The translations under genes and the position numbers were made by a program. DNA of 64,000 nt from the human T2T-CHM13v2.0 reference genome, Homo sapiens, in the NCBI RefSeq assembly GCF_009914755.1, contig NC_060938.1; one strand, written 5' to 3'. Shown here one piece after another: positions 18,485 through 50,010 of the stretch. Below the pieces are notes generated by a model that worked only from the letters and a program-made list of their open reading frames with translations, searched no databases and was not told the origin of the DNA. Numbering within the stretch: position 1 is the first letter of the stretch; each line of letters begins with the position of its first letter.

Positions 18485-21400
18485 TCAATTTCCACCTATG
18501 AGCAAGAACATGCGGTGTTTGATTTTTTGTCCTTGCAATAGTTTGCTGAGAATGGTGGTTTCCAGCTTCATCCACGTCCCTACAAAGGACATGAACTCAT
18601 CATTTTTTATGGCTGCATAGTATTCCATGGTGTATATGTGCCACATTTTCTTAATCCAGTCTATCATTGATGGACATTTGGGTTGGCTCCAAGTCTTTGC
18701 TATTGTGAATAGTGCCGCAATAAACATACGTGTGCATGTGTCTTTATAGCAGCATGATTTGTAATCCTTTGGGTATATACCCAGTAATGGGATGGCTGGG
18801 TCAAATGGTATTTCTAGTTCTAGATCCTTGAGGAATCGGCACAGTGTCTTCCACAATGGTTGAACTAGTTTACAGTCCCACCAACAGTGTAAAAGTGTTC
18901 CTATTTCTCCACATCCTCTCCAGCACCTGCTGTTTCCTGACTTTTCAATGATCGCCATTGTAACTGGTGTGAGATGGTATCTCATTGTGGTTTTGATTTG
19001 CATTTCTCTGATGGCCAGTGATGATGAGCATTTTTTCATGTGTCCGTTGGCTGCATAAATGTCTTCTTTTGAGAAGTGTCCTGTTTATATCCTTTGACCA
19101 CTTTTTCATGGGGTTGTTTTTTTCTTGTAAATTTGTTTGAGTTCATTGTAGATTCTGCATATTAGCCCTTTGTCAGATGAGTAGATTGCAAAAATTTTCT
19201 CCCATTCTGTAGGTTGCCTGTTCACCCTGATGGTAGTTTCTTTTGCTGTGCAGAAGCTCTTTAGTTTAATGAGATCCGATTTGTCAATTTTGGCTTTTGT
19301 TGCCATTGCTTTTGGTGTTTTAGACATGAAGTCCTTGCCCATGCCTATGTCCTGAATGGTATTGCCTAGGTTTTCTTCTAGGGTTTTTATGGTTTTAGGT
19401 CTAACATTTAAGTCTTTAATCCATCTTGAATTAATTTTTGTATAAGGTGTAAGGAAGGGATCCAGTTTCAGCTTTCTACATATGGCTAGCCAGTTTTCCC
19501 AGCAGCATTTATTAAATAAGGAATCCTTTCCCCATTTCTTGTTTTTGTCAGGTTTGTCAAAGATCAGATGGTTGTAGAAGTGTGGTATTATTTCTGAGGG
19601 CTCTGTTCTGTTCCCTTGATCTATATCTCTGTTTTGGTACCAGTACCATGCTGTTTTGGTTACTGTAGCCTTGTAGTATAGCTTGAAGTCAGGTAGTGTG
19701 ATGCCTCTAACTTTGTTCTTTATGCTTAGCATTGTCTTGGCAATGCAGGCTCTTTTTTGGTTCCATATGAACTTTAAAGTAGTTTTTTCCAATTCTGTGA
19801 AGAAAGTCATTGGTAGCTTGATGGGGATGGCATTGAATCTATAAATTACCTTGGGCAATATGGCCATTTTCACGATATTGATTCTTCCTATCCATGAGCA
19901 TGGAATGTTCTTCCATTTGTTTGTGTCCTCTTTTATTTCGTTGAGCAGTGGTTTGTAGTTCTCCTTGAAGAGGTCCTTCACATCCCTTGTAAGTTGGATT
20001 CCTAGGTATTTTATTCTTTTGAAATAATTGTAAATGGGAGTTCACTCATGATTTGGCTCTCTGTTTGTCTGTTATTGGTGTATAAGAATGCTTGTGATTT
20101 TTGCACATTGATTTTGTATCCTGAGACTTTGCTGAAGTTGCTTATCAGCTTAAGGAGATTTTGGGCTGAGATGATGCAGTTTTCTAAATATACAATCATG
20201 TCATCTGCAAACAGGGACAATTTGATCTCCTCTTTTCCTAATTGAATACCCTTTATTTCTTTCTCCTGCCTAATTGCCCTGGCCAGAACTTCCAACACTA
20301 TGTTGAATAGGAGTGGTGAGAGAGGGCATCCCTATCTTGTGCCAGTTTTCAAAGGGAATGCTTCTGGTTTTTGCCCATTCAGTATGATATTGGCTGTGGG
20401 TTTGTCATAAATAATTCTTATTATTTTGAGATACATCCCATCAATACCTAATTTATTGAGAGTTTTTAGCATGAAGGGCTGTTGAATTTTGTCAAAGGCC
20501 TTTTCTGCATCCATTGAGATAATCATGTAGTTTTTGTCTTTGGTTCTGTTTATATGCTGGATTACAGTTATTGATTTGCATATGTTGAACCAGCCTTGCA
20601 TCCCAGGGATGAAGCCCACTTGATCATGGTGGATAAGCTTTTTGATGTTCTGCTGGATTCTGTTTGCCAGTATTTTATTGAGGATTTTTGCATCAATGTT
20701 CATCAAGGATATTGGTGTAAAATTCTCTTTTTTTGTTGTGTCTCTGCCCGGCTTTGGTATAAGGATGATGCTGGCCTCATAAAATGAGTTAGGGAGGATT
20801 CCCTCTTTTTGTATTGATTGGAATAGTTTCAGAAGGAATGGTACCAGCTCCTCTTTGTACCTCTGGTAGAATTCGGCTGTGAATCCGTCTGGTTCTGGAC
20901 TTTTTTTGGTTGTTAGGCTCTTAATTATTGCCTCAATTTCAGAGCCTGTTATTGATCTATTCAGGGATTCAACTTCTTCTTGGTTTAGTCTTGGGCTGGT
21001 GTATGTGTCCAGGAATTTATGCATTTCTTCTAGATTTTCTAGTTTATTTGCATAGAGGTGTTTGTAGTATTCTCTGTTCGTAGTTTGTATTTCTGTGGGA
21101 TTGGTGGTGATATCCCCTTTATCATTTTTTATTGCATCTATTTGATTCTTCTCTCTTTTCTTCTTTATTGGTCTTGCTAGTGGCCTATCAGTTTTGTTGA
21201 TCTTTTCAAAAACCAACTTCTGGATTCATTGATTTTTCGAAGGGTTTTTTATGTCTCTATCTCCTTCAGTTCTGCTCTGATCTTAGTTATTTCTTGCCTT
21301 CTGCTAGCTTTTGAATGTGTTTGCTCTTGCTTCTCTAGTTCTTTTAATTGTGATGTTAGGGTGTCAATTTTAGATCTTTCCTGCTTTCTCTGTGGGCATT

Positions 21401-47192: not shown

Positions 47193-50010
47193 TTTTTTTT
47201 TCTTTTTTTATTTTATTATTATTATACTTTAAGTTTTAGGGTACATGTGCACAATGTGCAGGTTTGTTACATATGTATACATGTGCCATGTTGGTGTGCT
47301 GCACCCATTAACTCATCATTTAGCATTAGGTATGTCTCCTAATGCTATCCCTCCCCCCTCCCCCCACCCCACAACAGACCCCAGAGTGTGATGTTCCCCT
47401 TCTTGTGTCCATGTGTTCTCATTGTTCAGTTCCCATCTGTGAGTGAGAACATGTGGTGTTTGGTTTTTTGTCTTTGCAATAGTTTGCTGAGAATGATGGT
47501 TTCCAGTTTTATCCATGTCCCTACAAAGGACATGAACTCTTCATTTTTTATGGCTGCATAGTATTCCATAGTGTATATGTGCCACATTTTCTTAATCCAG
47601 TCTATCGTTGTTGGATATTTGGGTTGGTTCCAAGTCTTTGCTATTGTGAATAGTGCCGCAATAAACATACATGTGCATGTGTCTTTATAGCAGCATGATT
47701 TATAATCCTTTGGGTGTATACCCAGTAATGGGATGGCTGGGTCAAATGGTATTTCTAGTTCTAGATCCCTGAGGAATCGCCACACTGACTTCCACAATGG
47801 TTGAACTAGTTTAGAGTCCCACCAACAGTGTAAAAGTGTTCCTATTTCTCCACATCCTCTCCAGCACCTGTTGTTTCCTGACTTTTTAATGATTGCCATT
47901 CTAACTGGTGTGAGATAGTATCTCATTGTGGTTTTGATTTGCATTTCTCTGATGGCCAGTGATGATGAGCATTTTTTCATGTGTCTTTTGGCTGCATAAA
48001 TGTCTTCTTTTGAGAAGTGTCTGTTCATATACTTTGCCCACTTTTTGATGGGGTTGTTTGTTTTTTTCTTGTAAATTTGTTTGAGTTCATTGTAGATTCT
48101 GCATATTAGCCCTTTGTCAGATGAGTAGGTTGCGAAAATTTCCTCCCATTCTGTAGGTAGCCTGTTCACTCTGATGGTAGTTTCTTTTGCTGTGCAGAAG
48201 CTCTTTAGTTTAATGAGATCCGATTTGTCAATTTTGGCTTTTGTTGCCATTGCTTTTGGTGTTTTAGACATGAAGTCCTTGCCCATGCCTATGTCCTGAA
48301 TGGTAATGCCTATGTTTTCTTCTAGGGTTTTTATGGTTTTAGGTCTAACGTTTAAGTCTTTAATCCATCTTGAATTAATTTTTGTATAAGGTGTAAGGAA
48401 GGGATCCAGTTTCAGCTTTCTACATATGGCTAGCCAGTTTTCCCAGCACCATTTATTAAATAAGGAATCCTTTCCCCATTGCTTGTTTTTCTCAGGTTTG
48501 TCAAAGATCAGATAGTTGTAGACATGCAGCGTTATTTCTGAGGGCTCTGTTCTGTTCCATTGATCTATATCTCTGTTTTGCTACCAGTACCATGCTGTTT
48601 TGGTTACTGTAGCCTTGTAGTATAGTTTGAAGTCAGGTAGTGTGATGCCTCCAGGTTTGTTCTTTTGGCTTAGGATTGACTTGGTGATGTGGGCTCTTTT
48701 TTGGTTCCATATGAACTTTAGAGTAGTTTTTTCCAATTCTGTGAAGAAAGTCATTGGTAGCTTTATGGGGATGGCATTGAATCTGTAAATTACCTTGGGC
48801 AGTATGGCCATTTTCACGATATTGATTCTTCCTACCCATGAGCATGGAATGTTCTTCCATTTGTTTGTATCCTCTTTTATTTCATTGAGCAGTGGTTTGT
48901 AGTTCTCCTTGAAGAGGTCCTTCACGTCCCTTGTAAATTGGATTCCTAGGTATTTTATTCTCTTTGAAGCAATTGTGAATGGGAGTTCACTCATGATTTG
49001 GCTCTCTGTTTGTCTGTTATTGGTGTATAAGAATGCTTGTGATTTTTGCACATTGATTTTGTATCCTGAGACTTTGCTGAAGTTGCTTATCAGCTTAAGG
49101 AGATTTTGGGCTGAGACGATGGGGTTTTCTAGATATACGATCATGTCATCTGCAAACAGGGACAATTTGACTTCCTCTTTTCCTAATAGAATACCCTTTA
49201 TTTCCTTCTCCTGCCTAATTGCCCTGGCCAGAACTTCCAACACTATGTTGAATAGGAGTGGTGAGAGAGGGCATCCCTGTCTTGTGCCAGTTTTCAAAGG
49301 GAATTCTTCCAGTTTTTGCCCATTCAGTATGATTTTGACCGTGGGTTTGTCATAGATAGCTCTTATTATTTTGAGATACGTCCCATCAATACCTAATTTA
49401 CTGAGAGTTTTTAGCATGAAGAGTTGTTGAATTTTGTCAAAGGCCTTTTCTGCATCTATTGAGATAATCATGTAGTTTTTGTCTTTGGTTCTGTTTATAT
49501 ACTGGATTACGTTTTTTGATTTGTGTATATTGAACCAGCCTTGCATCCCGGGGATGAAGCCCACTTCATCATGGTGGACAAACTTTTTGATGTGCTGCTG
49601 GATTTGGTTTGCCAGTATTTTACTGAGGATTTTTGCATCAATGTTCATCAAGGATATTGGTCTAAAATTCTCTTTTTTTGTTGTGTCTCTGCCAGGCTTT
49701 GGTATCAGGATGATGCTGGCCTCATAAAATGAGTTAGGGAGGGTTGCTTCTTTTTCTATTGACTGGAATAGTTTCAGAAGTAATAGTACCAGCTCCTCCT
49801 TGTACCTCTGGTAGAATTCGGCTGTGAATCCATCTGGTCCTGGACTTTTTTTGGTTGGTAAGCTATTGATTATTGCTACAATTTCAGAGCCTGTTATTGA
49901 TCTATTCAGAGATTCAACTTCTTCCTGGTTTAGTCTTGGGAGGGTGTATGTGTCGAGGAATTTATCCATTTCTTCTAGATTTTCTAGTTTATTTGCGTAG
50001 AGGTGTTTGT
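47193..50010 (-). mobile_element. 5'-truncated L1PA3-like LINE-1 (~2.8 kb)
   Basis: CCCTAAAACTT 3'UTR; TSD GGGATATA(C/A)TTTTTTTT at 47184 and 50011. Confidence 0.96.
47426..49969 (-). pseudogene. L1 ORF2 RT and C-terminal region with a nonsense codon at 48581
   Basis: 462-aa and 286-aa ORFs in the same frame; [16 protein letters not shown]. Confidence 0.95.

What the first reader, a model, noticed from the sequence alone, without database searches (positions are those of the whole stretch)
19158..49900. Two neighbouring L1PA copies share private mutations: probable patchy interlocus gene conversion
Seen: the full-length L1 and the truncated L1 are co-oriented at an offset of 28944-28945 bp. 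They carry identical bases at six sites that differ from the L1PA consensus as I recall it: 19158/48102 (GLISRI to GLICRI), 19271/48215, 19278/48222 (KIDKWD to KIDKSD), 19519/48463, 20529/49474 (KNHM to KNYM) and 20955/49900 (NRPIT to NRSIT). Between these sites they still differ at subfamily-type positions (GTAGATTGCAAAA vs GTAGGTTGCGAAA; GGTATTGCC vs GGTAATGCC; 3'UTR TAGAACTT vs TAAAACTT), and each has its own TSD. Inference: independent insertions later homogenised by several short conversion tracts. The same ectopic pairing could give a ~29-kb NAHR deletion or duplication.
Basis: partly seen in the sequence, partly recalled or inferred. Interest (0 to 1): 0.8.

Follow-up and report, generated by a model that had tools for sequence, protein, structure and literature searches.

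The report
Two neighbouring L1 copies, shared variants
Two old LINE-1 insertions 29 kb apart carry the same bases at six sites, but each of those bases also occurs in dozens to hundreds of other LINE-1 copies, so exchange between the two copies is possible but not needed.

Summary
The sequence facts hold. A full-length L1 (A, 18269-24404, minus strand) and a 5'-truncated L1 (B, 47207-50010, minus) are co-oriented at an offset of 28944-28945 bp. They are 93.9% identical, each has its own target-site duplication, and they match at all six sites.

The variants are not private. Exact-word counts in the window's own genome give 122 carriers of 19158-C, 62 of 19278-G, 304 of 19519-A, 131 of 20529-A and 111 of 20955-A. 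19271-G is a standing variant in more than 570 copies.

Only the combination is unique: 19158-C with 19278-G occurs in A and B alone.

A sits in an older L1PA grade and B in a younger clade, so they are independent insertions. Unlinked relatives carry each of B's states, including B's local 19207-19406 haplotype on chr4.

The excess sharing is modest: 4 rare variants against about 0.9 expected, and unlinked control pairs reach 3. Shared sites do not lie in long identity runs. Conversion would need at least seven tracts, one of 31 bp or less.

Best reading: recurrent substitution plus lineage polymorphism (about 0.6). Some short gene conversion remains possible (about 0.3).

One side observation is unexplained: 19271-G copies of both lineages cluster in megabase-scale domains.

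The parts
18269..24404 (-). Copy A: full-length L1PA element of an older lineage grade. Its ORF2 is broken into several open pieces.
   Evidence: Alignment to B. ORF2p matches to PDB 8uw3_A with E 1.8e-186 and 4.7e-172. Stop-to-stop ORFs. The 5' UTR start read at 24404 (motif recognised from memory). Tree position.
18255..18268 (-). Target-site duplication of A, 3' side (ATTATATAAATTTG on the L1 strand). It abuts a 9-base poly(A).
   Evidence: Read and compared.
24405..24418 (-). Target-site duplication of A, 5' side. An Alu poly(A) lies directly upstream.
   Evidence: Read.
47207..50010 (-). Copy B: 5'-truncated L1PA element (2.8 kb: the 3' part of ORF2 plus the 3' UTR) of a younger clade.
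   Evidence: Tree and diagnostic sites.
47184..47191 (-). Target-site duplication of B, 3' side (GGGATATA on the + strand), next to the interrupted poly(A) at 47193-47215.
   Evidence: Read.
50011..50018 (-). Target-site duplication of B, 5' side (GGGATATA on the + strand).
   Evidence: Read.
19158..19158 (+). Shared C (partner 48102); other copies mostly have G. ORF2 S to C. 122 carriers genome-wide against 15547 with G.
19271..19271 (+). Shared G (partner 48215). Synonymous. A standing variant found on both lineage backgrounds.
19278..19278 (+). Shared G (partner 48222). ORF2 W to S. 62 carriers genome-wide. An unlinked chr4 copy (L031) has B's local haplotype.
19519..19519 (+). Shared A (partner 48463). 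Synonymous. 304 carriers genome-wide.
20529..20529 (+). Shared A (partner 49474). ORF2 H to Y. 131 carriers, 12 of 30 sampled lying in B's clade. Co-occurs with 20955-A in six copies.
20955..20955 (+). Shared A (partner 49900). ORF2 P to S. 111 carriers. Bracketed by lineage differences at 20933 and 20965.

Best explanation
A and B are two separate target-primed insertions from different L1PA lineages: A from an older grade, B from a younger clade. Each has since decayed neutrally and now departs from the majority of other copies at about 2.8% of sites.

The six identical bases are coincidences of three ordinary kinds:
1. 19271-G is a standing variant present in several hundred copies on both lineage backgrounds.
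2. 20529-A (like the further shared states 19619-A and 20272-A) is a state of B's lineage or sublineage. A either reached it by a parallel G-to-A change or inherited it in its own small sublineage.
3. 19158-C, 19278-G, 19519-A and 20955-A are recurrent substitutions, each seen in 62 to 304 other copies.

No sequence exchange between the two loci is required.

Shown: independent insertion, lineage placement and carrier counts. Inferred: that the coincidences arose by recurrence and descent rather than by transfer.
For: Carriers genome-wide: 122, 569, 62, 304, 131 and 111; 20272-A has 3522.

Tree of 64 copies over 19450-21060: A is in the older grade, B is in the younger clade, and they are not sisters. 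35 sites separate the two groups.

Unlinked copies carry B's states:
- L031 (chr4) has 19207-C, 19271-G, 19278-G, 19362-A and 19406-G, exactly as B does, and is B's nearest copy in 19191-19536 (6 differences against 7 for A).
- L013 has 19158-C and L022 has 19519-A.
- L051 has 20529-A with 20955-A.

On A's side, the older-grade copy L093 (chr5) has 20529-A with 20955-A and shares 6 of 80 other minor states of A.

Controls:
- 95 of 400 older-by-younger pairs reach A-B's total of 9 shared lineage-discordant or doubly deviant sites.
- Rare-variant sharing of A or B with unlinked copies is 0.34 per kb, with a maximum of 3 per pair.
- Shared sites are not in longer identity runs.
- The GENECONV-like p of 0.017 ranks 4th of 78, and 6 of 78 pairs fall below 0.05.
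- Over the whole 2.8 kb, A is no closer to B (93.9%) than to unlinked copies (92.9-94.5%).
Against: Four rare variants are shared where about 0.94 is expected (my Poisson P is about 0.016). With the stricter cross-lineage control, only 4 of 400 pairs reach A-B's rate once the two ascertained sites are added to A-B.

19158-C with 19278-G occurs in A and B only, in the whole genome. No other copy was seen with more than two of the five rare variants.

A carries three late markers of the younger lineage (19619-A, 20272-A, 20529-A), all of which B has. By my count, only 2 of 26 older-grade rows have three such markers.

The two longest concordant runs (20043-20166 and 20264-20352) each contain a lineage-discordant state (20104 in B, 20272 in A).

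Carriers of each rare variant show an excess of close pairs genome-wide (see the full report), so proximity does matter in some way.
Confidence: 0.6

Rival explanations
1. Non-allelic gene conversion between A and B moved at least one short stretch. The most economical version runs from B to A, because B's states are all found in B's unlinked relatives. It happened early, when the copies were about 98% alike, and later private mutations broke up the tracts.
For: There is an excess of shared rare variants. The joint haplotype is unique. A has younger-lineage states at 19619, 20272 and 20529 on an otherwise older background. The GENECONV-like test gives p 0.017 for the longest run and 0.0026 for the two longest. 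Conversion between neighbouring Alu elements is described within about 10 kb (passages seen in PMC8230782 and PMC6598467).
Against: At least seven separate tracts are needed, because lineage differences that A and B retain lie between the shared sites. The tract at 20955 could be at most 31 bp. There is no run-length signal. A is not B's nearest copy in any tested segment. Unlinked control pairs give equal or stronger signals. The copies are 29 kb apart, beyond the range reported for Alu elements.
Confidence: 0.3
2. Descent from related sources. Both copies came from a small set of related 19271-G source elements that inserted into the same megabase-scale domains, and those sources already carried the shared variants.
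For: Both copies are 19271-G, and both depart from their lineage majority by the same amount (38 and 37 of 1565 columns). 19271-G copies of both backgrounds co-cluster: 25 of 98 younger-type G copies have an older-type G copy within 500 kb, against 13 of 197 control L1 copies.
Against: A and B take opposite lineage states at most of the 35 diagnostic sites. The other shared variants are not enriched among 19271-G copies: 19158-C appears in 4 and 19519-A in 7 of roughly 570 or more. No site is strongly linked to 19271-G in the held copies.
Confidence: 0.06
3. Assembly or polishing artefact, in which reads from one copy corrected the other.
For: None found.
Against: The copies differ at 173 columns, with differences within 5-30 bp of most shared sites. 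Cross-mapped reads would have erased those too.
Confidence: 0.02

Closest known systems
Ordinary L1PA insertions of successive primate subfamilies (LINE-1, target-primed reverse transcription)
   Same: Both copies have ORF2p homology, a poly(A) tail and target-site duplications. B has the typical 5' truncation. The lineages differ by diagnostic substitutions.
   Different: Nothing structural. I could not name the subfamilies because no Dfam or RepeatMasker library was at hand.
Non-allelic gene conversion between neighbouring retrotransposon copies (described for Alu elements; Aleshin and Zhi 2010, as cited in PMC8230782 and PMC6598467, passages seen)
   Same: Non-diagnostic variants are shared by neighbours, and the pair is co-oriented on the same chromosome.
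   Different: The distance is 29 kb, against an effect reported within about 10 kb. There is no contiguous tract. Single variants are common elsewhere. Polarity was not tested in outgroups.
L1-L1 recombination-associated deletions (Han et al. 2008, recalled, not read here)
   Same: Co-oriented L1 copies tens of kb apart are the substrate class.
   Different: No rearrangement is seen. Identity is only 93.9% and the longest perfect match is 139 bp, so this is a poor substrate by the usual identity requirement (recalled).

Membership tests
LINE-1 (L1PA) insertion | ORF2 encoding endonuclease / reverse transcriptase related to human L1 ORF2p | tested here: met
   A's open pieces match PDB 8uw3_A residues 763-1066 (E 1.8e-186) and 366-658 (E 4.7e-172). 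B aligns to A over 2805 columns.
LINE-1 (L1PA) insertion | 3' poly(A) and flanking target-site duplication, separate for each copy | tested here: met
   A: 14-base duplication at 18255-18268 and 24405-24418. B: 8-base duplication at 47184-47191 and 50011-50018.
Non-allelic gene conversion between A and B | Derived variants shared by the pair and absent from other family members | tested here: inconclusive
   Each variant alone has 62 to 569 other carriers. The pair 19158-C plus 19278-G is unique to A and B.
Non-allelic gene conversion between A and B | Contiguous tracts of raised identity containing the shared variants | tested here: not met
   The runs holding the four rare sites are 71, 135, 43 and 31 bp. 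Their mean of 70 compares with 43 for random identical sites, p 0.10. Retained lineage differences separate the sites.
Non-allelic gene conversion between A and B | Local phylogenetic incongruence: the partner is the nearest relative inside the tract | tested here: not met
   In 19191-19536, B's nearest copy is L031 on chr4 (6 differences; A has 7), and A's nearest are L008 and L011. In 19047-19184, A ranks 13th of 51 for B.
Non-allelic gene conversion between A and B | Polarity shown at orthologous loci in outgroup species | not testable with these tools
   Only the window's own genome was searchable.
Segmental duplication of one L1 copy | Homology continuing into the flanks, and many shared rare variants along the whole copy | tested here: not met
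   No co-linear repeat exists outside the L1 at this offset. A and B share 0.72 rare variants per kb, against 7.1 and 5.3 per kb for the duplicate-like pairs L075/L076 and L050/L051.

The most novel reading that the evidence does not exclude
The A/B pair may be one instance of a genome-wide pattern. L1 copies of different lineages that lie in the same megabase-scale domain tend to carry the same allele at a synonymous ORF2 site (19271-G). That would point either to regional exchange among dispersed L1 copies, for example GC-biased ectopic conversion, or to source-specific integration territories. Either would mean that position in the genome, not only descent, shapes L1 sequence.
Probability: 0.15. 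Interest if true: 0.65.

Novelty: already known. Interest (0 to 1): 0.2.

Why it matters
As it stands this is an ordinary pair of old L1 insertions. The practical lesson is that agreement against a remembered young-L1 consensus is not evidence of private mutation. Variants carried by about 1% of 15,000 copies recur often enough to coincide.

If conversion between L1 copies 29 kb apart were real and common, L1 ages taken from divergence, and subfamily trees, would be biased locally. The domain clustering of 19271-G seen in passing is the part worth a proper genome-wide test.

Tried and rejected
- **Single conversion tract 19191-19536** (it would cover 19207, 19271, 19278 and 19519). Rejected. 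B keeps lineage-type states at 19362 and 19406 inside it. An unlinked chr4 copy, L031, has B's whole local haplotype. Other copies are as close to A there as B is.
- **Parent-daughter relation (B copied from A).** Rejected on the lineage differences.
- **Segmental duplication.** Rejected.
- **Strand-biased mutation as a cause of the shared G-to-A changes.** Not seen: G>A 16 and 17 against C>T 13 and 16.
- **CpG decay.** Of the shared sites, only 18537 lies in a CpG context (my reading).
- **A 19271-G sublineage carrying the other variants.** Not supported.
- **** used a mistyped word and found nothing; it carries no weight.
- **Fetching a second neighbour pair on chr8** for comparison was not possible. 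Earlier scan notes were not open.
- **Subfamily naming and outgroup comparison** could not be done with the tools at hand.
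Full report
**Anatomy**

Both elements lie on the minus strand.
- Copy A runs from a short poly(A) at 18269 to a 5' UTR start at 24404. It is flanked by a 14-base target-site duplication (18255-18268 and 24405-24418).
- Its ORF2 is broken into several open pieces. These match human L1 ORF2p, PDB 8uw3_A, at E 1.8e-186 and 4.7e-172.
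- Copy B (47207-50010) is 5'-truncated. It has an interrupted poly(A) and its own 8-base duplication (47184-47191 and 50011-50018).
- The two align over 2805 columns at 93.9% identity, with 173 differing columns: 108 transitions and 8 gap columns. The longest identical runs are 139, 135 and 98 bp.
- Nothing outside the L1 repeats at this offset.

**The observation**

All six site pairs are identical at offsets of 28944 or 28945.

**Are the variants private?**

The window's own genome could be searched. Among the 29 best genomic matches to A 19100-19600:
- The shared base at 19158 occurs in 3 of 29 copies (2 of 29 by a second mapping).
- At 19271 it occurs in 14 of 29.
- At 19278 it occurs in 0 of 29.
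- At 19519 it occurs in 6 of 29.
- At 20529 it occurs in 0 of the 16 copies that reach that far.
- At 20955 it occurs in 0 of 14.

That sample was chosen for likeness to A, so I also counted exact words genome-wide.

| Variant | Carriers |
|---|---|
| 19158-C | 122 (15547 with G) |
| 19278-G | 62 |
| 19271-G with 19278-C | 569 |
| 19519-A | 304 |
| 20529-A | 131 |
| 20955-A | 111 |
| 20272-A (a further shared state) | 3522 |

None of the variants is private.

Combinations are rarer:
- 19158-C with 19278-G occurs only in A and B.
- 20529-A with 20955-A occurs in six copies, where I expect about one under independence.
- 19158-C with 19271-G occurs in four copies, and 19271-G with 19519-A in seven.

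**Lineages**

A tree of 64 copies over 19450-21060 puts B in a short-branched younger clade and A in an older grade. They are not sisters. Thirty-five sites separate the two groups. At most of them A has the older state and B the younger. This supports independent insertion from different lineages.

Each copy departs from its own lineage majority at 38 and 37 of 1565 columns. Each departs from the overall majority at 78 and 81 sites, with no strand bias.

**Where do the shared states come from?**

On B's side, unlinked relatives carry every one of them:
- L031 on chr4 has 19207-C, 19271-G, 19278-G, 19362-A and 19406-G, as B does. It is B's nearest copy in that segment.
- L013 has 19158-C, and L022 has 19519-A.
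- L051 has 20529-A with 20955-A.
- 12 of the 30 sampled 20529-A carriers fall in B's clade.

On A's side:
- 19271-G is normal for its grade.
- L093 on chr5, an older-grade copy, has 20529-A with 20955-A.
- L048 has 20272-A with 20529-A.

**Is the sharing more than chance?**

- In the 29-copy sample, A and B share 11 non-majority columns of 3053. That ranks 23rd of 428 pairs; B shares 21 with L022.
- Among 400 older-by-younger control pairs, 95 reach A-B's total of 9. The sites 20529 and 20955 dropped out of that test because the sample had been picked on them.
- For variants rare in the sample (6% or less), cross-lineage controls average 0.25 per kb. 28 of 400 reach A-B's 0.72 per kb. Only 4 of 400 reach 1.43 per kb, which is A-B's rate once the two ascertained sites are added to A-B alone.
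- A or B against unlinked copies gives 0.34 per kb, with a maximum of 3 per pair. That means about 0.94 expected against 4 seen (my Poisson P is 0.016).
- A GENECONV-like permutation on 13 full-length rows and 687 polymorphic columns gives p 0.017. This is 4th of 78 pairs; the three better pairs lie on different chromosomes, and 6 of 78 fall below 0.05.
- The shared sites do not sit in longer identity runs than random identical sites (p 0.10, 0.15 and 0.19 for 4, 5 and 8 sites).

**Tract logic**

Lineage differences that the copies retain lie between the shared sites. Conversion would therefore need at least seven tracts. One of them, at 20955, could be at most 31 bp, boxed in by 20933 and 20965.

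A tempting single tract over 19191-19536 fails for three reasons. B keeps its own states at 19362 and 19406. L031 has the same haplotype as B. Unlinked copies are as close to A there as B is.

**Verdict on mechanism**

Recurrent substitution plus lineage and sublineage polymorphism explains the data without exchange (about 0.6). Some conversion, most simply from B to A, cannot be excluded (about 0.3). The reasons it stays open are the unique joint haplotype, the modest excess of sharing, and A's three late younger-lineage states.

Conversion between neighbouring repeats is an established idea for Alu elements within about 10 kb (PMC8230782 and PMC6598467, passages seen). PMC13192797 only mentions it for L1 (passage seen). 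My two literature searches turned up no L1-specific neighbour study. That does not show that none exists.

**Proximity effects seen in passing**

Carriers of each rare variant include more close pairs than expected.
- The baseline is 0.70 other L1 copies within 50 kb (from chr1 0-50 Mb only).
- On that baseline I expect about 1.6 carrier pairs within 50 kb over the five lists. I count 9 besides A/B.
- Some are plain duplicates. L075/L076, 2.3 kb apart and inverted, share 13 rare variants in 1.8 kb. L050/L051 share 16 in 3 kb. A/B is not of that kind.

The effect is much stronger for 19271-G:
- Copies with 19271-G give 31 pairs within 50 kb among the first 100 listed, against 1.3 expected.
- They occur on both backgrounds: 137 older-type and 151 younger-type, against 4231 older-type with T.
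- The two kinds co-cluster. 25 of 98 younger-type G copies have an older-type G copy within 500 kb, against 13 of 197 control L1 copies (p 1e-5).
- They are nearly absent from contigs 7 and 8: 5 of 186 against 47 of 197.
- No other site is strongly linked to 19271-G in the held copies.

I have no tested explanation for this. It makes sharing of 19271-G by neighbours the rule, not a peculiarity of this pair.

**Limits**

- No Dfam or RepeatMasker library and no outgroup genomes were available.
- The locus sample is partly chosen on A's own variants.
- Lists longer than 100 hits are truncated.
- The density baseline comes from one chromosome arm.

Noticed in passing
genome-wide; window 19271 / 48215: L1 copies with G at the site equivalent to 19271 are strongly clustered in megabase-scale domains. 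They occur on both lineage backgrounds (137 older-type and 151 younger-type, against 4231 older-type with T). The two kinds co-cluster (25 of 98 against 13 of 197 controls within 500 kb). They are almost absent from contigs 7 and 8 (5 of 186 against 47 of 197). Unexplained.
   Followed up: partly
genome-wide lists: Carriers of each rare variant include more pairs within 50 kb than expected: 9 besides A/B against about 1.6 by my arithmetic. Same-strand examples include contig 8 at 31.77/31.80 Mb and contig 19 at 29.99/30.02 Mb. I could not fetch these to tell duplication from exchange.
   Followed up: partly
L075 and L076 (contig 2, 195.29 Mb); L050 and L051 (contig 3, 19.86 and 20.36 Mb): These neighbouring L1 copies share many rare variants along their whole length (7.1 and 5.3 per kb). 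They look like old local duplications of a single insertion.
   Followed up: partly
L059 (contig 4, 21.09 Mb): This copy has older-type states from the equivalent of 19046 to 19742 and younger-type states from 19891 onward. It is an apparent chimera of two L1 lineages.
   Followed up: no
genome-wide: 20529-A and 20955-A occur together in six copies on five chromosomes, where about one is expected if they were independent. The copies are on both lineage backgrounds.
   Followed up: partly
window 25372-25491: A 120-base fragment of an L1 3' end lies in the opposite orientation, 94% identical to B's 3' end, about 1 kb beyond A's 5' end.
   Followed up: no
window 24419-24726: An Alu with a long poly(A) lies directly against A's 5' target-site duplication, on the same strand.
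   Followed up: no
printed matches: Several neighbouring 19271-G hits share private changes in the printed 80 bases, for example contig 1 at 60.652/60.661 Mb and at 117.363/117.391 Mb, and contig 2 at 68.46-68.69 Mb. Part of the clustering therefore comes from local duplicates or exchange. Others, such as contig 4 at 81.5-83.7 Mb, differ from one another.
   Followed up: no
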